DNA of 8,739 nucleotides from a virus (Duplodnaviria; Heunggongvirae; Uroviricota; Caudoviricetes), in IMG/VR virus record IMGVR_UViG_2681813233_000012, positions 1 to 8,739 of that record. One strand, written 5' to 3'. Positions 1 through 8,739 of this stretch are shown in pieces. The position numbers and the translations under genes were made by a program. How positions within the stretch are numbered: position 1 is the stretch's first letter; every line of letters starts with the position of its first letter. Below the pieces are notes generated by a model that ran no database searches, was not told the DNA's origin, and saw only the letters and a list, made by a program, of their open reading frames with translations.

Positions 1-39
1 TAAGTTGGAGTCATTACCGACGATGTTGACGGGCAGGAG

Positions 40-1866
40 ATGCCAGGGCCCAACGAAAGCGACAATTTCCCAGTAGAATCTGCGACGGCAAATACCGTAG
101 TAAGTGGTGATTATGCTGGAGGCCAGATAGCGATGAAAATCGTCAAGCAGGCTGAGTTCGACTACTTCATGGGGCTCGTGCTACCGCATTCTGTCACCTT
201 TACAATTAATGTCACCTACAACACTACATCGGGCAGCGTTACAGAAGATGTGCTTTTCTCAGGTACGCTGATTTCTGCTGTAGAGAGTGATGATGGTTCC
301 TTGATAGACCATGTTCAGTGGTACACGTTCACCATGACAGATTTGCAGGGACCGCCAACAGTTCCATCTACTGCCACCATTAACACGACAAAATTCATTC
401 TCAATGATAACGAGGCGCTTGTTGTGGGGCCTTTCTTCTCGCCTGTTGAGTCAACTGAGCTGTGGCTGCATACACAGTCATCACTTGGTGGCGGTAACTG
501 GACGGACTGGACGGTAACAATCTGGAAAATTGACGACGATTACAATCAGATCCCCGGAACTCAGCAGGCCTTCACCTATCATCAGGGAACGCCGCATAAG
601 TCGACCAGCGAAGTGTTTTATCGCACCGATAAAATAATTCCAGCAGGAGGGTTTGGTAAATACGCCATCAACTTCCAGCGTACAAACAACTCCAATGATG
701 CCTCTATCCTGAAGGTCGAAGAGATTCACGCCGTTAATATTCGCAGCAATGTGGTTCACCCGACTGATACGCTTGTTCGTGTGAAGGTCAGGGCGACAGA
801 GAATGCACTGGGTAGCCGTGACCGCAAATACAACGCCATGGTGACTCGCCACACCATCAGTTACAACCTGACGACACAGTCCGTGGATTACACATTACGG
901 CCGTCTCGGTCGTTTGCTGACGCGGTGGCGCATACCTGGCTTGTAATGGGAGGCCAACCAGAAAACAGTATTGATCTGTACGGCCTGTACTCTATCGTGG
1001 AAAGCCTGCCTGATGAGCGGCTGGGCTACTTCGACTACACGTTTGACGATGAGAACGACTCACTTGGTGACAGGGTGCAGGCGATCTGCAATGCAGCATC
1101 CGTCATGGCGTACTGGGATGACGGTGTGCTGACATTCACCCGCGACCAGAAGGTTGATTATCCTGCTGCTGTATTCAACCGGGCCAACATGAAGACAGAC
1201 GAGTACAAAATTACGTACGAAGCCACTCTTCCCGGAGGTTACGACGGCGTTCAGGTCTCCTACGTTCATCCGACTACGAATAACAAGACGTACATCAACT
1301 ACCGCGTTCTGAACGGCGTTATCGTCGAGCAGGAAGCTGAGAACCCAAACAAGCTTGAGATAGTAGGATTCCGTAACGAGTACCAGGCTCGTGAGCGAGC
1401 GTTACGCGAAACAAAGCGGCTTATCTACTCCCGGGTGAAGATGAATGCCAAGGTATTTGAGGACGGGATTATCCAGGTGGGCAGCGTTATCCAGATGCCG
1501 GATATCTACGACAGCAACCAGCAGCAGGGTTACATCACCGGCCGCACTGGGAATAACTTCGATACGAGCGAACCAATCAAGTTTACCGGAACGATGTATG
1601 TTCTGGTTACTGACAGCTTGGGCAATCCAACACTGCGTTATCCGGCAACGGCCCGCAGCGACACGAAATATGGATTTACTGCAGCAATACCCACCATTCA
1701 GCTCAACATATGGAACGGAGACACTGTGCAGCTCCCGTCGCGCTATCTCATAGCGACCGTAGAAGAGTTAGATAGTCAATTATGGACAGTCAACAGCATC
1801 AAACCGAACACTGACAATACGGTATCCCTGATCGTCGCAGAGTACAGCGACTCAGTCTACGGATAG
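40..1866 (+). CDS. Phage virion structural protein, 608 aa (tail-associated or ejection-type protein; family not recognised)
   Basis: Long uninterrupted ORF with ATG at 40 and an in-frame TAA at 1..3 just upstream, so the ORF is complete. AGGAG lies immediately 5' of the ATG. The protein is Thr/Asn/Ser-rich and beta-like, and sits directly upstream of the tailspike gene. Product assignment is by position and composition only. Confidence 0.8.
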   Translation: MPGPNESDNFPVESATANTVVSGDYAGGQIAMKIVKQAEFDYFMGLVLPHSVTFTINVTYNTTSGSVTEDVLFSGTLISAVESDDGSLIDHVQWYTFTMTDLQGPPTVPSTATINTTKFILNDNEALVVGPFFSPVESTELWLHTQSSLGGGNWTDWTVTIWKIDDDYNQIPGTQQAFTYHQGTPHKSTSEVFYRTDKIIPAGGFGKYAINFQRTNNSNDASILKVEEIHAVNIRSNVVHPTDTLVRVKVRATENALGSRDRKYNAMVTRHTISYNLTTQSVDYTLRPSRSFADAVAHTWLVMGGQPENSIDLYGLYSIVESLPDERLGYFDYTFDDENDSLGDRVQAICNAASVMAYWDDGVLTFTRDQKVDYPAAVFNRANMKTDEYKITYEATLPGGYDGVQVSYVHPTTNNKTYINYRVLNGVIVEQEAENPNKLEIVGFRNEYQARERALRETKRLIYSRVKMNAKVFEDGIIQVGSVIQMPDIYDSNQQQGYITGRTGNNFDTSEPIKFTGTMYVLVTDSLGNPTLRYPATARSDTKYGFTAAIPTIQLNIWNGDTVQLPSRYLIATVEELDSQLWTVNSIKPNTDNTVSLIVAEYSDSVYG

Positions 1867-1888
1867 AACCTAATCCGAATATCACAAT

Positions 1889-1911
1889 CCGGCCACTGAG
1901 CCGGTTTTTTT
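1889..1911 (+). terminator. Rho-independent terminator candidate (CCGGC / GCCGG stem, 6-nt loop, T7 tract)
   Basis: CCGGC at 1889..1893 pairs with GCCGG at 1900..1904, followed by TTTTTTT at 1905..1911, 23 nt after the stop of the 40..1866 ORF. Confidence 0.55.
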
Positions 1912-1922
1912 ATGGAAAAATT

Positions 1923-4298
1923 ATGGCCACCCAACCAACAAATAACGCAGTGCCAAGCGAATCACCCCGTGATCTGAAGTTTAACGCGGGGAAAATTGAT
2001 GAGTTCGTTACGTCTGAGAATCATGATTATGTTGACAGATTTGGCAATAAACATCGTACAATTGAAGGCATAAATTACGATTCGAACCAGGCAATTCTGA
2101 ATTATGGCTATATCACGAAGGATTCTTTTGAAGATGGCAGCACCATTAGCCTTGCTAACGAGTGCTTACGCTGGAAGAGCAACGGCGAGTACTACAGATG
2201 GGATGGGTCACTCCCCAAAGTAGTTCCCCCTGGCTCTACTCCGGAAGGCACTGGTGGGCTAGGGAAAGGTAAGTGGGTTGGTGTCGGAGATGCATCTTTG
2301 CGATCGGCAATGAAGAATGAGAATGGTACTGATTTAATTAATGGAACAAAATCTGTTGTTGGGTCAGTTACAAGATCACTAACAGATATGTTGTCAGACA
2401 AGATATCCGTGCGGGATTTTGGCGGAATTGATGACTATGATGGAACAAATGCATCAACATGCACTAACAACAGAATTCCATTTCAACGGTATTTTGAATA
2501 TCTTAATTCAATTGGCGGTGGCGATCTAAATATTCCACGTAAATTAACCGGGAAATATTTTATTAGTGGTGATGACCACACACAAGTTACCTCTAAAGTT
2601 CGTTTAAATACTGACGAAGGTGTATCTATACATCTTGATTTCTCTGGAGGTGCTTCAAATACTCCATTTGCCAATCTCGATTTAAGGGCATCGAGCCAGA
2701 TAAAGATTGAGTATGTTAATTTTGGTTATCCGTCATATGTTGGTGGTAGCGTAGACACGCCATTTAGTGACTCTTTGCAAACCATGAACAATGGTGATGG
2801 TATTTACACGGTGCCAGAAGTACTATCAGGTAGTGATTTTAAAGTCATTTCATTGGGAAATAGCTCTGTTGAAATACCACCGTTATCAACATCCGGAGAT
2901 ACAATCTCTTTTAATGGCGGAGGGGTTCCAACTGCAGCAGTCATCAGCGTGACTCCTGGTGACGAAATTATGGCGTTAATAGGCTCGAATTCGCTTGGGG
3001 GAATTATTGCCGGTGTCGTCACGGTTAATGGCTATGCTTATGTTTCTCAAGATACTTCTAGTGGTAATATTACCCTTGCAGAAGGCACGATAGGGCAGCC
3101 AAATATACTAACTGGTCTTAATTATGCTCTCATGGATCAGCTAAGAGATCGGTTTGACCGTGCTATCATAACAGTAAAAATTACTTCATCGAGAACCTTT
3201 ACCGTTATGGCTAACGGTCTGGCAATATGCAGTCATACCACCAGGTCTAGTATTCTTGGCGCTTGTCTTGGTACTTCCGACATTAATAGTATTGTGAATG
3301 TATCACAAATGTCTCGAGTTAGAGGGCATAGTTTTTCCGGGTCCAAGCCTTTGAGGATATTGGTTTGCGGAGATTCAATTACCGATCAAAATAATCAATA
3401 TTCATGGGCCAAATATCTCCAGATGCAGTTGGGCTCAGCTGGCGTTAACATTGCAGAGATAAATAATTTAGCAGTGGCTGGACAGACAGCGGCCCAACAA
3501 CTCAGCATCCTGAAAACTGTTGGTGTAGGATATGATATCTGCCTGATACAGGTTGGTGTAAATGATGTTCAGTTACAGACTCCGGTAGCATCCTTCATTT
3601 CGACAATAAATGAAATGGTCACTTACGCGAAGGGGATTGGAGCATTTCCGATTGTTGGTGTACCCACGGCTTTTTATTCTCTTGCAGAGGCGAATGCTAA
3701 TGGGCAAACGGGAGGGCAAAACACATCAAACAACTCTTCGATAGGGATGTACCGATCGCTTCTTATTCGTGCTGTTGCAGCAGCTGGCGGAATTGTTAAC
3801 CTTGAGCCTATGAAAGGACATGGAGCTATGACGGCTAAGTGGCTGTCACTGAAACCGTATGCCGTCAGCGATAGCATCGTGCTGGACAATATTCACCCCA
3901 CTCCATATGGGTCGATGCTCCTGGCACAAGGATATGCGCGATGCATTCTTGGATGGCTTACTAGGCCTGACATGACACCAACGGAAAGCTTTGAATTTAT
4001 TCCTAGCGGGTGGCTTAGCCCAGGATTTGGCGAAACATCGATCCCTAAAATTAAAGGAAGGGAGTTCTCTGGGTTGATAAGTCTGCATGCAACAAATATC
4101 AATGATGGTTCAGTGGCCTTCACTTTGCCACCATCATTTAAAGTAGATAACGTTAAGATGCTTGCGGTGACAGGGACAAACAGTTCCGGGCTTCCGGTAG
4201 GTGTTTGTAATTTATATGTTGGGACAGACGGGAAGTGTTACTTCTTTAATATTCCAGAAGGAGTTACCCAAGTATCAATGGACGGTGTGGTTTTATAG
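1923..4298 (+). CDS. Tailspike / tail fibre protein with a C-terminal SGNH-hydrolase (polysaccharide esterase) domain, 791 aa
   Basis: N-terminal ~115 aa adaptor-like region, then a segment typical of the start of pectate-lyase-like beta-helix tailspikes (ISVRDFGGIDDYDG...IPRKLTGKYFISGDD). All SGNH blocks are present in order: GDSIT (Ser485, nt 3375..3377), block II Gly in NLAVAGQT (Gly520), GVNDV (Asn547), DNIH (Asp655/His658, nt 3885..3896). A further ~130-aa C-terminal domain follows. Confidence 0.85.
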   Translation: MATQPTNNAVPSESPRDLKFNAGKIDEFVTSENHDYVDRFGNKHRTIEGINYDSNQAILNYGYITKDSFEDGSTISLANECLRWKSNGEYYRWDGSLPKVVPPGSTPEGTGGLGKGKWVGVGDASLRSAMKNENGTDLINGTKSVVGSVTRSLTDMLSDKISVRDFGGIDDYDGTNASTCTNNRIPFQRYFEYLNSIGGGDLNIPRKLTGKYFISGDDHTQVTSKVRLNTDEGVSIHLDFSGGASNTPFANLDLRASSQIKIEYVNFGYPSYVGGSVDTPFSDSLQTMNNGDGIYTVPEVLSGSDFKVISLGNSSVEIPPLSTSGDTISFNGGGVPTAAVISVTPGDEIMALIGSNSLGGIIAGVVTVNGYAYVSQDTSSGNITLAEGTIGQPNILTGLNYALMDQLRDRFDRAIITVKITSSRTFTVMANGLAICSHTTRSSILGACLGTSDINSIVNVSQMSRVRGHSFSGSKPLRILVCGDSITDQNNQYSWAKYLQMQLGSAGVNIAEINNLAVAGQTAAQQLSILKTVGVGYDICLIQVGVNDVQLQTPVASFISTINEMVTYAKGIGAFPIVGVPTAFYSLAEANANGQTGGQNTSNNSSIGMYRSLLIRAVAAAGGIVNLEPMKGHGAMTAKWLSLKPYAVSDSIVLDNIHPTPYGSMLLAQGYARCILGWLTRPDMTPTESFEFIPSGWLSPGFGETSIPKIKGREFSGLISLHATNINDGSVAFTLPPSFKVDNVKMLAVTGTNSSGLPVGVCNLYVGTDGKCYFFNIPEGVTQVSMDGVVL

Positions 4299-4302
4299 TT
4301 CC

Positions 4303-4326
4303 GTGTGGGAGGTCTCCCTCCCACAC
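4303..4326. terminator. 10-bp GC-rich hairpin between convergent genes (candidate bidirectional terminator)
   Basis: GTGTGGGAGG at 4303..4312 is the exact reverse complement of CCTCCCACAC at 4317..4326, with a 4-nt loop. It lies between the tailspike stop (4298) and the stop of the - strand gene (4333). There is no clean U-tract on either side, so terminator function is inferred. Confidence 0.5.
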
Positions 4327-4332
4327 TCACTA

Positions 4333-5412
4333 TTAATTGTAAGGGGTTTCTCTTTCCATTTCTAAAACTATGGCTCTGAAATTTCTATTAAACTCATAAC
4401 CAGGTTTATTATGTAACTCTGCATTTATGCAGTCTCCTAGAAGAGAACTTCTGATTCTAGCACCATACCCATTGGTATGATAAGCAGAGTCCATAAATAA
4501 TTTTCCTCCAAGATTAGACGCGCTTGGTGCGCAAATAACGTTAATACCAGCAACAGAAAGCAAACCCTTAAGTTTCATTAACGACTGCATGGTTTGTCCA
4601 TTATCAGTGTCAAACCCCGGATTTCGCATCGTAACAGGCCATGTAATAAATAATTTCCCACCTTTATTAGAAACAAAATTATTTATTTCCTTGAGTGTTG
4701 TATATGTATGTTCAGATATTTTAGGAATGTCTGAGTTATATGTAAATGTGCCATTATACACAGAATCGTAAACAGTTTTACCGTCAATAAAAACATTGAT
4801 GTCACCGTTTTTATTTAGACTTTTATAACTGTACCCATTATATTCACCATTGGTAGAGTTAAGATGATTGATGACATCACTCAACGGTGAAACCAGGCCT
4901 TTATCTTCTGCATTAAATCCTTCAACTAACCTTTTGGGGCTAACATTCATCATGAACTTTATACGGTTATAAATGTTGATGCTTGATAGGTAATCCTGGC
5001 CCCACCCCAATATATTATTAACAAACCAATCAGTTGGTGCTTCCGTACGTGTGTAGTACTCATACTCAAGCGGCATTACAACGATATCACCATTTTTAAA
5101 ATGCTTTTTTAATTGATAAAAATGATAGTTTATATCTAGCTCTGCATGCGTTGCAATATTTACAACTGGAAGTGATGTTTTATGGGAAATAATTTCACTA
5201 TTTATAGAAAATAAGCTATTCGACCCGCTAGAGATTATTATTTTTTTCCCATTTATCCTGTCAGCGGCAACGCCTTTAAAATCAATTACGTTCTTTAGCC
5301 ACCACCCACCTACAACCTGCTTTCCTTCCTGCATTTTGAAAGCATAAATAAACGTCCCAGCGGCAAATGCAAGTATTGCTAAGAATATAGAGAAGCTGAA
5401 TTTATAATTCAC
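4333..5412 (-). CDS. Membrane-anchored SGNH/DltD-like (PatB/AlgJ-class) protein, predicted periplasmic partner of the upstream MBOAT acyltransferase, 359 aa
   Basis: GTG start at 5410..5412 preceded by AAGGG 6 nt upstream, 9 bp after the MBOAT stop, suggesting an operon. N-terminal hydrophobic anchor (FSIFLAILAFAAGTFIYAF). Ser-rich motif IISSGSNS (res 59..66) near the N-terminus and DSAYH (Asp308/His312) near the C-terminus, the SGNH-like order of nucleophile then Asp/His. Very AT-rich. Confidence 0.6.
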   Translation of the reverse strand: MNYKFSFSIFLAILAFAAGTFIYAFKMQEGKQVVGGWWLKNVIDFKGVAADRINGKKIIISSGSNSLFSINSEIISHKTSLPVVNIATHAELDINYHFYQLKKHFKNGDIVVMPLEYEYYTRTEAPTDWFVNNILGWGQDYLSSINIYNRIKFMMNVSPKRLVEGFNAEDKGLVSPLSDVINHLNSTNGEYNGYSYKSLNKNGDINVFIDGKTVYDSVYNGTFTYNSDIPKISEHTYTTLKEINNFVSNKGGKLFITWPVTMRNPGFDTDNGQTMQSLMKLKGLLSVAGINVICAPSASNLGGKLFMDSAYHTNGYGARIRSSLLGDCINAELHNKPGYEFNRNFRAIVLEMERETPYN

Positions 5413-5421
5413 TGTTCGCCC

Positions 5422-6267
5422 TTAAAAATTGAAGTAAATAAAGGATCCGGGAGCCGCCCCACCCAAGGAAGCAGTCACTGCAATGCAAACGCCAAAGGCA
5501 CACAGGCATGGAGCAAGCAGATTCCACGCTATACCACTCTTATGTTCTTTGGTCATCTCCATGAAAACATTAGAATTTACATTAATTAAGCACGTCATAA
5601 TGGCAATGGCGCAAACAGCTATCATATAGAAACCACCTTTCGATGCCTCATAGAGGAAAGAGTCCGCAAAAGGTTGAGCATATTTAAATCCGGAAACCAA
5701 AGAATCGTAACCAGCAAACATTTTCTTTAGCAAACTAAAAGCATCATTTAAGTTATCTGTTCTGAAGAAAATCCAGGTGATATTCACGTAATTGAATGTT
5801 ATAAACCAACCTACAACGCTCGGCATGCGAAAGCCATTTTGTGACCAATACCTGTGAATGACAAGCCCAGCCCCGTGTAAAGCGCCCCACGCCAAAAAAT
5901 TCCATCCAGCTCCATGCCAGAAACCGCCGATCAAAAACGTCAAAAACAGGTTTAGATATGTGCGTAATACACCATTTCGGTTTCCGCCAAGAGGAATGTA
6001 GACATAATTCCTGAGCCACGTGGAAAGGGTAATGTGCCAGCGTCTCCAGAAATCTTGAAGGTCTGTTGCTATGTATGGTGAATTGAAGTTGATAGGCAGC
6101 ACAACGCCAAACAGAAGGGCCGAGCCAATCGCCATGTCAGTATATCCGGAGAAATCAAAGTATAACTGGATACTGTATGAGAGGCTGGTTATCCATGCCT
6201 CCAAAGCACCAAGGGCTGAGATATTTGCATAACCTTGATCCGCTATAGAGCCAAAATATGAAGACAA
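5422..6267 (-). CDS. MBOAT-family membrane-bound O-acyltransferase (AlgI/DltB/PatA-like), C-terminal portion; the frame is open upstream to 6357
   Basis: Contains the MBOAT signature region: YFDFSGYTDMAIG, FWRRWHITLSTWLRNYVYIPLGGNR and GGFWHGAGWNFLAWGALHG (conserved His). The ORF-track start at 6267 is a TTG; the same frame stays open to a TAA at 6358..6360. Confidence 0.8.
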   Translation of the reverse strand: MSSYFGSIADQGYANISALGALEAWITSLSYSIQLYFDFSGYTDMAIGSALLFGVVLPINFNSPYIATDLQDFWRRWHITLSTWLRNYVYIPLGGNRNGVLRTYLNLFLTFLIGGFWHGAGWNFLAWGALHGAGLVIHRYWSQNGFRMPSVVGWFITFNYVNITWIFFRTDNLNDAFSLLKKMFAGYDSLVSGFKYAQPFADSFLYEASKGGFYMIAVCAIAIMTCLINVNSNVFMEMTKEHKSGIAWNLLAPCLCAFGVCIAVTASLGGAAPGSFIYFNF

Positions 6268-6334
6268 GACAACTTTTTTGAATATTCCGACACTAAATAT
6301 AAATACTGCGGGAACGAAATATTTCCCGAAATAA

Positions 6335-6859
6335 TTATCCCTTGAGTTGGTTTGTAATTACATCATAATTTGTTATCGGGCCAGAGATGAGCTTAGGGAA
6401 AAACAAAATGTAGCAGCAATAATTTAATATTGAAATGTTAGATATCTGTTTTCTATACAAACTAACTGATAAAGAAATCTGCTGAAATGTATAGAAGCTT
6501 ATGGCTAACGGCGCAATAACATTCATGTGGCCTATATTTAGGTTGAAAATACTAGATATGTTACTTGCAAAGAAGTTGCAGTATTTAAAATAACCAAGAG
6601 ATGCCACGTTAAATATAACTGATAATGCTACATATAATTTTGTCTTTTCAGATTTCATCATTGTTAATATTGCGTAGTTTATCAGCATCGATATCAACAA
6701 AAGAGGCAAGAAATTAAATGTGAAAAAAGTATAGAAATACAGGCTAGCGCAACAAATCCACACCTTGGAGAGAGCAATGTTAAATTTTTTCAGGAAAAGG
6801 AATATCAATACCACCAAAGGTAAAAACATTACAGAATATTCTAACGAGTTAAATAACAT
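6335..6859 (-). CDS. MBOAT-family O-acyltransferase, N-terminal portion (same gene as 5422..6267, separated by a frameshift)
   Basis: ATG at 6857..6859 with AAGG/AGGGA upstream. Typical AlgI/DltB N-terminus: multiple TM helices, ISFYTFQQISL and FFPKLISGPI motifs. Ends at TAA 6335..6337 in a frame offset by one from the C-terminal portion. Confidence 0.8.
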   Translation of the reverse strand: MLFNSLEYSVMFLPLVVLIFLFLKKFNIALSKVWICCASLYFYTFFTFNFLPLLLISMLINYAILTMMKSEKTKLYVALSVIFNVASLGYFKYCNFFASNISSIFNLNIGHMNVIAPLAISFYTFQQISLSVSLYRKQISNISILNYCCYILFFPKLISGPITNYDVITNQLKG

Positions 6860-7110
6860 GCCTTATCCCTTATATAAGTTATCAATCAAGTTTAAACCGC
6901 TATCAGAACACCAAATTCGCTTATCCATTCATGAACCTCTTCCACGCGCAATCTGCAACCACACTTAACATCCATGGTATTAACTTTAATTCCTAAAATT
7001 AGTGACATGGAGTTTACCACTACAGAGAAATCTGATCATTACTTGATCGAAAGAAGGGAACGTGGTGCTGTGCGTATACACAGCAATGGTCGGAGAAGCA
7101 TCTCTGATCC
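6860..7110 (-). promoter_or_regulatory. Putative regulatory region of the MBOAT operon (RBS, weak sigma70-like elements, cluster of three GATC sites)
   Basis: Shine-Dalgarno-like AAGG immediately 5' of the ATG. Candidate -35/-10 (TTTAAA / TATATA on the - strand) has sub-optimal spacing. GATC at 7034..7037, 7045..7048 and 7106..7109. No experimental support. Confidence 0.3.
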
Positions 7111-7405
7111 CATATGCTCGCTCTTTGGTGGTTTGCAGAATGGAAGGCGAGTTGAGGATAAGGCGATATCGTAAATCATCAACTCCTCACCTGGAGGAAT
7201 TGCAGACGGGGAGGCGTAAAAGATACCAGTGCACGATGACGGAACTAGCCCGGATGCGATCTTTGGGATGTTCACCTACATCATCCACGATGTTCGCTCT
7301 GACGAGTTCGACGACTTTCTGGTGATGTGATGGGGCATGGATGAGGAAAACATTATCGAAAACAACCCAAAACAGATGGAGTTGAGAGGTGTCTTGCACC
7401 ATTTC

Positions 7406-8560
7406 TCACAACTTACCATCAAGCCAGTCTGCCCACCACTGCATCATCTCCCTGCGCTTATCCATGTACTGAGCGTGATTGTATATCCCACGAATGGAGC
7501 CGCTGTTAGCGTGCGCCAGTTGCTTCTCTATGGCATCAGCAGGCCACTCGTGCTCATTCATTATTGTGCTGAACTGGTGCCGGAAACCATGTCCACTGGC
7601 GAGGCCCTCGTAGCCTATCTGCCGAATAACCAGCAGAACGGCGTTTTCACTGAGCGGCTTTGTTTTGTCATTGCGCCCGGCGAACACGAAGCTTGATATC
7701 GGCTGCGTTACCGGCCTCAGGGTTTCAAGCAAAGAGACAACTTGATCTGACATTGGGACAAGGTGGGGGCGGCGGCCTTTCATCACCTCTTCGGTGATCG
7801 TAATCGTCCTGGTTTCGAAATCGACGTTCGACCATTGCATAGACCTGAGTTCTTTAGTCCTGAGCACGGTGTACTGCAATACCTGCGTCGCAATCTTCGA
7901 TACGATGCTGCCAGAGAAGCCAGCCAGAGCCTTATTGAATTCCGGTATCTGGTCTGCAGGAAGGAAGGGGTAGTTCTTTTTCCGGTATCCCTTCATGGCA
8001 TCAGCAAGGTCAGGAGCCGGGTTATATTTCGCTCTCCCGGTAACTATCGCGTACCTGAATACTTCCCCGCACCTCCTCCGCGCCTTATTGGCCCGCTCCA
8101 TTGCTCCACGGTCTTCGAACCTGCGGATCACTTCCAGTATCTGCATTGGTTCTATCTCGTTAATCTCCATCCCGCCAATCAACGGCAGAATGTCATCCTG
8201 GAACATGCGTGACAGTTCGGTGCTGTACACTTCTGACCATACCTGTTTTTTGTGCTCGTACCATTCTTGGTATATAGAGCCGAAAGAGTTGTCTTTAACT
8301 GACAGTTTTTTAGCCTTTACAGGATCGACGCCGAGAGACACATCCTTTTTGGCAAGCCAAGCTTTGTCTCTGGCTTCCTGCAATGACATGAGCGGGTATT
8401 TGCCTACCGTCAGAACCTTCTCTTTACCATCGAGCTTGTAACGCAGCTGCCAGACTTTCTTTCCGGTAACCGGAACATAAAGGTACAGTCCGTTGCTGTC
8501 GAGTAGCCGGTACGGTTTATCTTTCGGCTTTGCCGCGTCGATCTGCTTGATGGTGAGCAT
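7406..8560 (-). CDS. intS: Tyrosine integrase, P4/IntS-type (site-specific recombinase with N-terminal arm-binding domain), 384 aa
   Basis: N-terminus MLTIKQIDAAKPKDKPYRLLDSNGLYLYV is typical of P4-family integrases. Catalytic-domain motifs HGFRHQFST (HxxR) and a C-terminal Tyr region (IRGIYNHAQY). It sits next to the 3' end of an argW-type tRNA in the same orientation, as for IntS of the E. coli K-12 CPS-53/KplE1 prophage. The symbol is assigned by this context and recalled similarity, not by a search. Confidence 0.9.
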   Translation of the reverse strand: MLTIKQIDAAKPKDKPYRLLDSNGLYLYVPVTGKKVWQLRYKLDGKEKVLTVGKYPLMSLQEARDKAWLAKKDVSLGVDPVKAKKLSVKDNSFGSIYQEWYEHKKQVWSEVYSTELSRMFQDDILPLIGGMEINEIEPMQILEVIRRFEDRGAMERANKARRRCGEVFRYAIVTGRAKYNPAPDLADAMKGYRKKNYPFLPADQIPEFNKALAGFSGSIVSKIATQVLQYTVLRTKELRSMQWSNVDFETRTITITEEVMKGRRPHLVPMSDQVVSLLETLRPVTQPISSFVFAGRNDKTKPLSENAVLLVIRQIGYEGLASGHGFRHQFSTIMNEHEWPADAIEKQLAHANSGSIRGIYNHAQYMDKRREMMQWWADWLDGKL

Positions 8561-8585
8561 GGGTAAAATTCCGGAGGGTAAAATT
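8561..8585 (+). repeat. Two direct copies of GGGTAAAATT (8561..8570, 8576..8585) abutting the int start codon
   Basis: Exact 10-bp direct repeat separated by 5 bp (CCGGA). On the - strand it reads AATTTTACCC-TCCGG-AATTTTACCC-ATG. Confidence 0.6.
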
Positions 8586-8595
8586 ATTTACTCGT

Positions 8596-8625
8596 TTTTT
8601 ACCCGCCGAAGCATGCGGCTGTCAA
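8596..8625 (-). promoter_or_regulatory. Candidate sigma70 promoter for int (-35 TTGACA, 18-bp spacer, -10 TAAAAA)
   Basis: On the - strand, TTGACA (8620..8625) and TAAAAA (8596..8601) are separated by 18 nt, ~35 nt upstream of the int ATG. Confidence 0.35.
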
Positions 8626-8634
8626 CGTTCTATT

Positions 8635-8714
8635 GCGAACTATGGCGAACTAATATTTTATTGAGAGCTTGCTGTGTAAGGGATTTTGCGAACTACTGCG
8701 GAGAGTGGCGAACT
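8635..8714 (+). repeat. Four direct copies of GCGAACT (8635..8641, 8645..8651, 8688..8694, 8708..8714): candidate integrase arm-type binding sites in the att region
   Basis: Heptamer repeated four times in the same orientation, in two pairs, between the tRNA 3' end and the int promoter. Arm-type sites of P4/lambda-family integrases are short direct repeats in this position. Confidence 0.5.
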
Positions 8715-8720
8715 GTGAAA

Positions 8721-8739
8721 TGGTGTCCCCTGCAGGAAT
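8721..8739 (-). tRNA. argW: 3' end of a tRNA-Arg gene (argW-type, anticodon CCU), partial: only the last 19 nt including CCA are in the window
   Basis: Reverse complement of 8721..8739 is ATTCCTGCAGGGGACACCA, which matches my recollection of the 3' terminus (T-arm, acceptor stem, CCA) of E. coli argW. The gene continues beyond the window end. Confidence 0.6.

What the first reader, a model, noticed from the sequence alone, without database searches (positions are those of the whole stretch)
6338..6357. MBOAT gene interrupted by a single-base frameshift
The N-terminal (174 aa) and C-terminal (281 aa) MBOAT portions are in reading frames offset by one nucleotide. The only place the switch can occur is 6338..6357, between the TAA in the downstream frame at 6358..6360 and the TAA ending the upstream frame at 6335..6337. 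Removing one base there, for example one G of the coding-strand GGG at 6339..6341 or one A of an AAA run, would give a contiguous protein (...GPITNYDVITNQLKDNYFGKYFVPAVFIF...). This could be a pseudogene in this lysogen, an assembly error, or a slippage-prone on/off switch.
Basis: seen in the sequence. Interest (0 to 1): 0.6.

Follow-up and report, generated by a model that had tools for sequence, protein, structure and literature searches.

The report
Prophage acetyltransferase gene broken by 5-bp deletion
A sugar-acetylating membrane enzyme gene carried by an E. coli prophage is genuinely broken here, not by one extra base but by loss of one copy of a doubled 5-base motif. It is an ordinary inherited pseudogene, and most related prophages carry the intact version.

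Summary
On the minus strand, a 174-codon ORF (6859..6335) and a +1-offset open frame (6357..5422) are the two halves of one MBOAT O-acyltransferase gene.

The lesion is not a single-base indel at a homopolymer. Intact alleles, otherwise identical in protein sequence, read CAA CTC AAC TCA AGG GAT (…NQLNSRDNYF…). The window has lost one unit of the tandem AACTC|AACTC, and the surviving unit lies at 6348..6344. Re-inserting 5 nt restores a 480-aa protein identical to the intact E. coli alleles.

The deletion is present with identical sequence in at least 16 independent assemblies or SRA runs, so it is not an assembly error. About 20 of 24 related prophage contigs read are intact.

Haplotypes fit a single origin. 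Only 1- and 2-copy alleles were seen, orthologues lack the repeat, and there is no slippery codon. Neither a phase-variation switch nor programmed frameshifting is therefore supported.

The gene belongs to a lysogenic-conversion-type cassette. The MBOAT carries a C-terminal FIYFNF acyl-shuttle motif. Next to it lie an unannotated SGNH-fold partner (5412..4333) and a tailspike with a GDSL esterase domain. The cassette sits in a prophage at argW, and this copy of the prophage is also hit by IS1.

Verdict: an ordinary young pseudogene in a decaying prophage. Low interest.

The parts
6335..6859 (-). 5' fragment of the MBOAT pseudogene: 174 codons plus a premature TAA. The last two codons (AAG GGA) are out-of-frame read-through after the deletion.
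   Evidence: ORF list and translations. It aligns to residues 1-172 of the 480-aa homologues. The identical product is found on at least 14 contigs.
6342..6349 (-). Deletion scar. This is the remaining CAACTCAA tract (1.6 units of period 5). Intact alleles have CAACTCAACTCAA (2.6 units). The single AACTC at 6348..6344 is read as (C)AA-CTC (Gln-Leu) in the upstream frame and as AAC-TC(A) (Asn-Ser) in the downstream frame.
   Evidence: The predicted ancestral 23-mer was found exactly in viral contig L095. Copy counts are 1 versus 2 across loci. Re-inserting 5 nt gives a 480-aa ORF identical in protein to L102-L106.
5422..6357 (-). 3' fragment of the MBOAT pseudogene in the +1 frame. It is homologous from 6348 onward and carries the RRWH and FWHGAGW histidine motifs and the C-terminal FIYFNF acyl-shuttle motif.
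   Evidence: Translation. Pfam MBOAT 104 bits and MBOAT_2 31 bits. Alignment to DltB 6BUG across FWHG. Invariant columns in the homologue alignment. The motif is defined in PMC12148441.
4333..5412 (-). Intact partner gene of 359 aa: an N-terminal membrane helix plus an SGNH-fold domain (DltD/PatB-like). It starts 9 nt after the MBOAT stop codon.
1923..4298 (+). Tailspike of 791 aa with an N-terminal Tail_spike_N domain and a GDSL/SGNH esterase domain, convergent with the acetyltransferase pair.
   Evidence: Pfam PF18668 and PF13472. PHROG tail fibre and tailspike families. It travels with the MBOAT pair in E. hormaechei (L091) and in an E. coli remnant (L001).
7406..8560 (-). Tyrosine integrase of the prophage (type A variant). 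The attachment site is next to tRNA-Arg(CCT) just beyond the window.
   Evidence: Pfam Phage_integrase, Arm-DNA-bind_3 and Phage_int_M. tRNA-Arg(CCT) was found in L004 and L102. There are 335 differences from the type B integrase.
1..1866 (+). IS1 terminal repeat (1-17), followed by the 3' part of an IS1-interrupted TipJ-family tail gene (ORF 40..1866). This is a second disabling lesion in this copy of the prophage.
   Evidence: Sequence at the window start. The same junction continues into IS1 in L098. The uninterrupted 825-aa gene is seen in L102. NCBIfam TipJ hit.

Best explanation
The gene is a null allele (pseudogene) of a prophage-borne MBOAT O-acyltransferase.

In the intact gene, the loop after the conserved FFPKLISGPI motif is encoded by CAA CTC AAC TCA (Gln-Leu-Asn-Ser). 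By chance this contains a tandem pentanucleotide, AACTC-AACTC. One unit was lost, most likely through strand slippage during replication (inferred). That shifts the frame by +1 and terminates translation two codons later.

The product is a 174-aa N-terminal stub. It lacks the catalytic His (FWHG) and the C-terminal Tyr acyl-shuttle motif (FIYFNF), so the enzyme cannot load an acetyl group for its SGNH partner.

The intact pair is predicted, by analogy with PatA/PatB and AlgI/AlgJ-X, to O-acetylate a periplasmic or surface glycan of the lysogen, in the manner of lysogenic conversion. That activity is therefore lost in carriers of this allele (inferred; the acceptor polymer is unknown).

The allele arose once on the type B prophage background. 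It was inherited and then became fixed in a sub-lineage, which includes the window, that also acquired a different integrase module and an IS1 insertion in a tail gene. This is prophage decay.

Whether the loss was neutral or selected, for example to change phage sensitivity or antigenicity, is not determined.
For: Shown:
- The frames and stop codons are as described.
- Eleven of the twelve closest homologue clusters are single 480-aa ORFs with a loop of constant length (the twelfth, 462 aa, is shorter only at the N-terminus).
- P0123 is an E. coli protein on 31 contigs. It equals the window's two fragments joined by ...NQLNSRDNYF....
- The ancestral DNA predicted from this protein was found exactly in L095.
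- Loci carry either 1 or 2 AACTC units and differ by 0-4 other substitutions over 7.4 kb.
- Repairing the window with 5 nt gives a protein identical to L102-L106.
- The deletion has identical sequence in at least 16 independent samples, comprising 7 NCBI assemblies and 9 SRA runs.
- About 20 of the 24 contigs read with the same tailspike are intact.
- All 16 contigs with the window-type integrase carry the deletion. L003 and L007 differ from intact L102 only by the deletion at the variable sites tabulated, so one origin suffices.
- Host flanks are 99.9-100% identical, which fits inheritance within one E. coli lineage.
- The catalytic His region and the FXYXXF motif lie downstream of the break.
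- The partner has an SGNH fold.
- IS1 interrupts the tail gene in the same haplogroup.
Against: - No expression or biochemical data exist. A C-terminal fragment could in principle be made from the internal TTG at 6267 or the ATG of the 237-aa gene call.
- No second disabling mutation has accumulated in either fragment or in the partner gene. The pseudogene is therefore young, or the locus is still under some constraint.
- The deletion allele is found on two prophage haplotypes. Under a single origin this requires a later integrase-module exchange plus three substitutions. Recurrent deletion is not formally excluded.
Confidence: 0.86

Rival explanations
1. Phase-variable (contingency) switch. 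The AACTC repeat would gain and lose units reversibly by slipped-strand mispairing, turning prophage-encoded glycan acetylation on and off in the population.
For: - The lesion is exactly one unit of a tandem repeat, which is the signature of slippage.
- Both alleles coexist in very closely related lysogens.
- The tract is the longest period-5 repeat in the gene, which holds 4 such tandems against 1.4 expected from shuffles.
- No further decay is seen in the off allele.
- Surface-glycan modification genes are classic phase-variable loci (general knowledge).
Against: - There are only 2.6 units in the on state and 1.6 in the off state. Known pentanucleotide contingency loci carry many units (general knowledge). 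After the deletion there is no tandem left to slip back.
- Only two states were seen. No 3-copy allele turned up in the loci read or in IMG/VR.
- A single mutational origin explains all haplotypes. All 16 contigs with the type A integrase are off, and none is on.
- The repeat is not conserved. E. hormaechei has CAGATTAACTCA and E. coli YZ22MPE6 has CAGTTTAACAGT at the same place.
Confidence: 0.06
2. Sequencing or assembly artefact. The gene would be intact in the real genome.
For: The window is a short draft contig of 8.7 kb. Frameshifts in draft assemblies are often errors.
Against: - The identical 5-bp deletion appears in at least 16 independently sequenced and assembled samples.
- A 5-nt loss in a non-homopolymer context is not a typical platform error.
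- The allele co-segregates with linked SNPs and an integrase variant.
Confidence: 0.01
3. The interrupted gene is still functional, either through programmed +1 ribosomal frameshifting across 6338..6357 or as a two-piece enzyme (174-aa fragment plus a separately initiated C-terminal fragment).
For: - An AGGG stretch lies immediately before the TAA, which is reminiscent of the Shine-Dalgarno-like stimulator of prfB frameshifting.
- Start codons exist in the downstream frame (TTG 6267, and the ATG of the 237-aa call).
- The allele persists without further damage.
Against: - No codon in 6357..6338 lets the P-site tRNA re-pair in the +1 frame. ACA-A, AAC-C, CAA-C, CTC-A, AAG-G and GGA-T all fail on direct reading.
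- Any shifted product would lack two residues of a loop whose length is invariant in 12 homologues.
- No homologue is frameshifted or split. All twelve closest are single ORFs.
- The break falls inside the contiguous MBOAT core as aligned to DltB.
Confidence: 0.03

Closest known systems
PatA/PatB, AlgI/AlgJ-AlgX, WssH/WssI: bacterial MBOAT-SGNH polysaccharide O-acetyltransferase pairs (mechanism in PMC12148441)
   Same: - MBOAT with the conserved His (FWHG).
- Two extra C-terminal helices ending in the FXYXXF acyl-shuttle motif. Here it is FIYFNF; N. gonorrhoeae PatA has FIYANF.
- An adjacent membrane-anchored SGNH-fold partner.
   Different: - Sequence identity to characterised members is low. 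The best NCBIfam hit is DltB, at 168 bits against a 375-bit cutoff.
- The partner matches no Pfam, NCBIfam or PHROG model.
- The pair is carried on a prophage next to the tailspike, rather than in a chromosomal polysaccharide operon.
- The acceptor polymer is unknown.
- In this window the MBOAT is inactivated.
Prophage lysogenic-conversion O-acetyltransferases (Oac of Shigella phage Sf6, OafA/GtrC-type, phage D3)
   Same: - A surface-glycan acetylation gene carried as a moron between the tail/tailspike genes and the integrase/att site of a temperate phage.
- Such genes are often found inactivated in some lineages.
   Different: The classical examples are AT3-family proteins (PF01757), sometimes fused to SGNH (PMC9558356, PMC7448272). 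Here the membrane component is an MBOAT with a separate SGNH partner. The MBOAT has no PHROG family.
Frameshift pseudogenes created by deletion of one copy of a short tandem direct repeat (replication slippage)
   Same: There is an exact loss of one repeat unit, a premature stop a few codons downstream, and an intact allele segregating in the same lineage.
   Different: Nothing distinctive. This is the textbook case.
Esterase tailspikes such as phage G7C gp63.1 (4QNL) and SGNH-domain receptor-binding proteins of temperate Klebsiella phages (PMC13123978)
   Same: The neighbouring 791-aa tailspike has a Tail_spike_N domain plus a GDSL/SGNH esterase domain. Deacetylating tailspikes are known receptor-binding enzymes.
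   Different: The tailspike itself was not modelled or compared here. Its linkage to an acetyltransferase pair in one cassette is not described in the papers read.

Membership tests
MBOAT (PF03062) membrane-bound O-acyltransferase | Significant match to the family profile | tested here: met
   The downstream frame scores 104.4 bits against a 27-bit cutoff, E 9.7e-30, and also hits MBOAT_2. The repaired or intact protein matches DltB 6BUG at E 4.9e-31.
MBOAT (PF03062) membrane-bound O-acyltransferase | Invariant catalytic histidine | tested here: met
   The FWHGAGW histidine is invariant in 13 sequences. It aligns with the FWHG of DltB.
MBOAT (PF03062) membrane-bound O-acyltransferase | One uninterrupted reading frame encoding the whole fold | tested here: not met
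   The window has a premature TAA at 6337..6335 after a 5-bp deletion. It is therefore a pseudogene of a family member, not a functional member.
MBOAT-SGNH acyl-shuttle pairs (PatAB/AlgIJX type) | C-terminal FXYXXF motif with an invariant Tyr on the MBOAT | tested here: met
   The protein ends ...GSFIYFNF. F473, I474, Y475, F476, N477 and F478 are invariant in 13 homologues. The motif is defined in PMC12148441.
MBOAT-SGNH acyl-shuttle pairs (PatAB/AlgIJX type) | Adjacent extracytoplasmic SGNH-fold partner with a catalytic Ser/His | tested here: met
MBOAT-SGNH acyl-shuttle pairs (PatAB/AlgIJX type) | Acetyl-CoA-dependent O-acetylation of a defined envelope polymer | not testable with these tools
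   This needs biochemistry, or NMR/MS of LPS, ECA, capsule and peptidoglycan from isogenic lysogens.
Simple-sequence-repeat phase-variation (contingency) locus | Long tandem tract giving a high slippage rate | tested here: not met
   The tract is 13 nt (2.6 units) in intact alleles and 8 nt in the window. TRF finds no array.
Simple-sequence-repeat phase-variation (contingency) locus | Multiple repeat-number states, with recurrent switching across the phylogeny | tested here: not met
   Only 1- and 2-copy alleles were seen among the related E. coli prophage loci examined. There is no 3-copy allele in IMG/VR. Haplotypes fit one origin. Read-level heterogeneity could not be tested.
Simple-sequence-repeat phase-variation (contingency) locus | Repeat conserved at the DNA level in orthologues | tested here: not met
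   E. hormaechei L091 and E. coli L001 encode the same loop without the repeat.
Programmed +1 ribosomal frameshift (prfB type) | Slippery P-site codon allowing re-pairing in the +1 frame, and a frameshift conserved among homologues | tested here: not met
   No re-pairing codon exists in 6357..6338 (direct reading). Every homologue listed is a single ORF, and the closest twelve align across the junction without a break.

The most novel reading that the evidence does not exclude
The two-copy AACTC tract would be a low-frequency but reversible switch, letting lysogens toggle prophage-encoded glycan O-acetylation. In a cassette that also encodes a deacetylating tailspike, such a switch would tune sensitivity to the phage's own relatives. 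The coexistence of on and off alleles in near-identical hosts would then reflect switching or balancing selection rather than decay.
Probability: 0.05. Interest if true: 0.45.

Novelty: already known. Interest (0 to 1): 0.15.

Why it matters
As a frameshift, it matters little. It is a correctly spotted, real but ordinary inactivating deletion in a decaying prophage.

Its practical value is for annotation:
- The 174-aa 'hypothetical protein' and the 237/281/292-aa 'MBOAT family protein' calls in at least 16 assemblies are two halves of one pseudogene.
- The correct repair is +5 nt, not -1 nt.

The context is mildly more interesting. The intact allele defines a prophage-borne MBOAT-SGNH acetyltransferase pair with the FXYXXF acyl-shuttle motif. 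Its partner belongs to a small protein family with no database model. The pair is genetically linked to an esterase tailspike. Natural on and off alleles in near-isogenic E. coli would make convenient material for identifying the acetylated glycan and its effect on phage adsorption.

Tried and rejected
- Complete E. coli genomes (megablast). There were only two hits, at 87% identity. Both are an N-terminally truncated remnant cassette next to IS1. They showed a 5-nt length difference but were too divergent to define the lesion.
- INPHARED phages. Nothing covered the MBOAT region.
- GTDB species representatives. Only relatives at 51% identity or less were found. They confirm that one ORF covers both halves, nothing more.
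Intact loci were reached instead through the window's own tailspike protein.
- Searches for the deleted allele and for a 3-copy allele in IMG/VR found nothing. A JGI metagenome scan for any allele also found nothing.
- TRF on the intact gene reports no tandem array.
- Programmed frameshifting is rejected on codon inspection and on homologue architecture.
- Recurrent origin of the deletion was considered, because the allele lies on two haplotypes. The ordering intact-B, then deleted-B, then deleted-A needs only one deletion, and no intact type A prophage was found among 16 contigs.

Full report
**Observation**

On the minus strand, an ATG ORF runs 6859..6335. It gives 174 aa and ends ...GPITNYDVITNQLKG followed by TAA at 6337..6335. 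The frame displaced by one base is open from 6357, just after the TAA at 6360..6358, to the TAA at 5424..5422.

The downstream frame is a strong MBOAT match: PF03062, 104 bits, E 9.7e-30, plus MBOAT_2. The 174-aa part has no Pfam hit alone. It nevertheless aligns along its length with the N-termini of the closest homologues, eleven of which are single ORFs of 480 aa (84-89% down to 66% identity; the twelfth is 462 aa). A single alignment to the solved MBOAT DltB (6BUG) runs straight across the junction. The coordinates and the 'one gene, two frames' reading are therefore confirmed.

**What the lesion really is**

A first alignment with an 87%-identical E. coli copy showed a 5-nt length difference rather than 1 nt. 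An intact Enterobacter hormaechei gene (L091) showed the same difference. It also showed that the window's downstream frame already matches the intact protein from AAC TCA AGG GAT (N-S-R-D), while the upstream frame matches up to CAA CTC (Q-L).

This predicted an ancestor ...AAC CAA CTC AAC TCA AGG GAT AA..., that is a tandem AACTC-AACTC of which the window keeps one unit. Three results confirmed the prediction:
- The 23-mer occurs exactly in an IMG/VR contig (L095) that is 96.5% identical to the window over 8.5 kb.
- The 90% cluster containing the window's fragments holds an E. coli protein on 31 contigs (P0123). It is identical to the two fragments joined by ...ITNQLNSRDNYFGKYF....
- Re-inserting five bases into the window gives a 480-aa ORF whose protein is identical to five intact loci (L102-L106), with only 1-2 synonymous nucleotide differences.

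The surviving AACTC lies at 6348..6344, within the 8-nt periodic tract 6349..6342. It is read as (C)AA-CTC in one frame and as AAC-TC(A) in the other.

**Artefact or real**

The 174-aa product is on at least 14 contigs. The site sequence is identical in every locus read that carries the split gene, from 7 NCBI assemblies and 9 SRA runs. The deletion also co-segregates with linked variants. It is a real, heritable allele.

**Population picture**

Looking up contigs through the window's own tailspike protein gave 24 contigs read. About 20 of them carry the intact 470/480-aa gene and about 4 carry the deletion.

Over window positions 1-7400 the loci differ at only about a dozen sites, and two haplogroups appear:
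- Group B (1888C, 4909A, 5306T, integrase type B) holds all the intact alleles and also four deleted ones. L003 and L007 differ from intact L102 only by the deletion at the variable sites tabulated.
- Group A (1888T, 4909T, 5306C, with an integrase differing at 335 positions) is deleted in all 16 contigs found through its integrase.

The ordering intact-B, then deleted-B, then deleted-A (integrase-module exchange plus three substitutions) needs only one deletion event. Chromosomal flanks (fadI to yfdC to tRNA-Arg CCT) are 99.9-100% identical among carriers, so this is variation within one E. coli lineage. No second disabling mutation is present in either fragment or in the partner gene, so the pseudogene is young.

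**Switch or recoding?**

The tract is only 2.6 units long. It is the longest of four period-5 tandems in the gene, against 1.4 expected by shuffling, and TRF reports nothing. Only 1- and 2-copy alleles exist in what was read, and no 3-copy allele is in IMG/VR. Orthologues encode the same loop without the repeat. After the deletion no tandem remains to slip back. This does not look like an evolved contingency locus, although slippage is the probable mechanism of the one-off loss.

For +1 recoding, none of the codons between 6357 and 6338 allows P-site re-pairing. Every homologue is a single ORF with a loop of invariant length.

**What was lost**

The intact protein has the MBOAT histidine (FWHGAGW). 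It ends in FIYFNF, the FXYXXF acyl-shuttle motif. Anderson et al. (PMC12148441) showed that in PatA this motif is auto-acetylated on Tyr and passes the acetyl group to the SGNH partner PatB.

The pair is therefore an MBOAT-SGNH O-acyltransferase of the PatAB/AlgIJX kind. It sits between a tailspike with a GDSL esterase domain (1923..4298) and the integrase, in a prophage at argW. This is the classical position of lysogenic-conversion genes.

The frameshift removes the catalytic His and the Tyr shuttle from the translated product, so acetyl transfer should be abolished. This step is inferred, and the acceptor glycan is unknown.

**Context of decay**

The first 17 bases of the window are the IS1 terminal repeat. 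In L098 the same junction runs into IS1, whereas intact prophages read through an 825-aa TipJ-family tail gene. The window's 608-aa ORF (40..1866) is therefore the remnant of an IS1-interrupted tail gene. The group A prophage is defective, which fits ordinary prophage erosion.

**Comparison and verdict**

- In mechanism, the intact gene belongs with PatA and AlgI.
- In genomic role, it resembles phage O-acetyltransferases such as Sf6 Oac, but those are AT3 proteins (PMC9558356).
- The interruption itself is a textbook short-repeat deletion pseudogene.

The residual novel reading, a reversible low-rate switch of conversion, has about 5% probability.

Noticed in passing
window 1-17 and 40-1866; L098 15300-15570; L102 3467-5944: The window begins with the IS1 terminal inverted repeat. 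The 608-aa ORF is the 3' remnant of an 825-aa TipJ-family tail gene interrupted by IS1. This explains why several contigs of this haplogroup break at the same base. This copy of the prophage is defective.
   Followed up: yes
window 4333-5412 (-): The 359-aa partner has no Pfam, NCBIfam or PHROG model and only 24 homologue clusters in 5.8 billion proteins, many of them from Campylobacterota. It is confidently predicted as a membrane-anchored SGNH-fold, DltD/PatB-like protein. It appears to be an unnamed family of MBOAT partners.
   Followed up: partly
window 1923-6859; L091 10001-14949; L001 5850-10527: The MBOAT, the SGNH partner and the GDSL-esterase tailspike stay together as a three-gene cassette. 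This holds in an E. hormaechei prophage inserted at a different chromosomal site and in a stranded remnant next to IS1 in E. coli YZ22MPE6 (93% identity over 4.4 kb). It suggests a functional link between the acetylating module and the putatively deacetylating tailspike.
   Followed up: partly
window 7400-8739 versus L002/L102: The integrase module differs at 335 positions between two otherwise near-identical prophage haplotypes at the same argW site. This indicates a recombinational swap of the integrase region with a sharp boundary near 7400.
   Followed up: partly
proteins P0125, P0132, P0133 (cluster of P0001): Some E. coli copies of the intact MBOAT end ...FIYFNFW. An extra Trp follows the acyl-shuttle motif, which implies a mutated stop codon (TAA to TGG-type change or similar) at the position of window 5424..5422. 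The effect on the C-terminal motif is unknown.
   Followed up: no
window 6449: This is a private synonymous substitution of the window (AAG to AAA, Lys) in the 5' MBOAT fragment. All 21 other loci aligned have C on the plus strand.
   Followed up: yes
public annotations of the same locus: Gene callers split the pseudogene inconsistently. Some aa 'hypothetical' plus 237 or 281 aa MBOAT. Some call a 292-aa fragment starting at an ATA codon. Some make no call at all. The intact allele is called as 470 or 480 aa depending on the start chosen.
   Followed up: no
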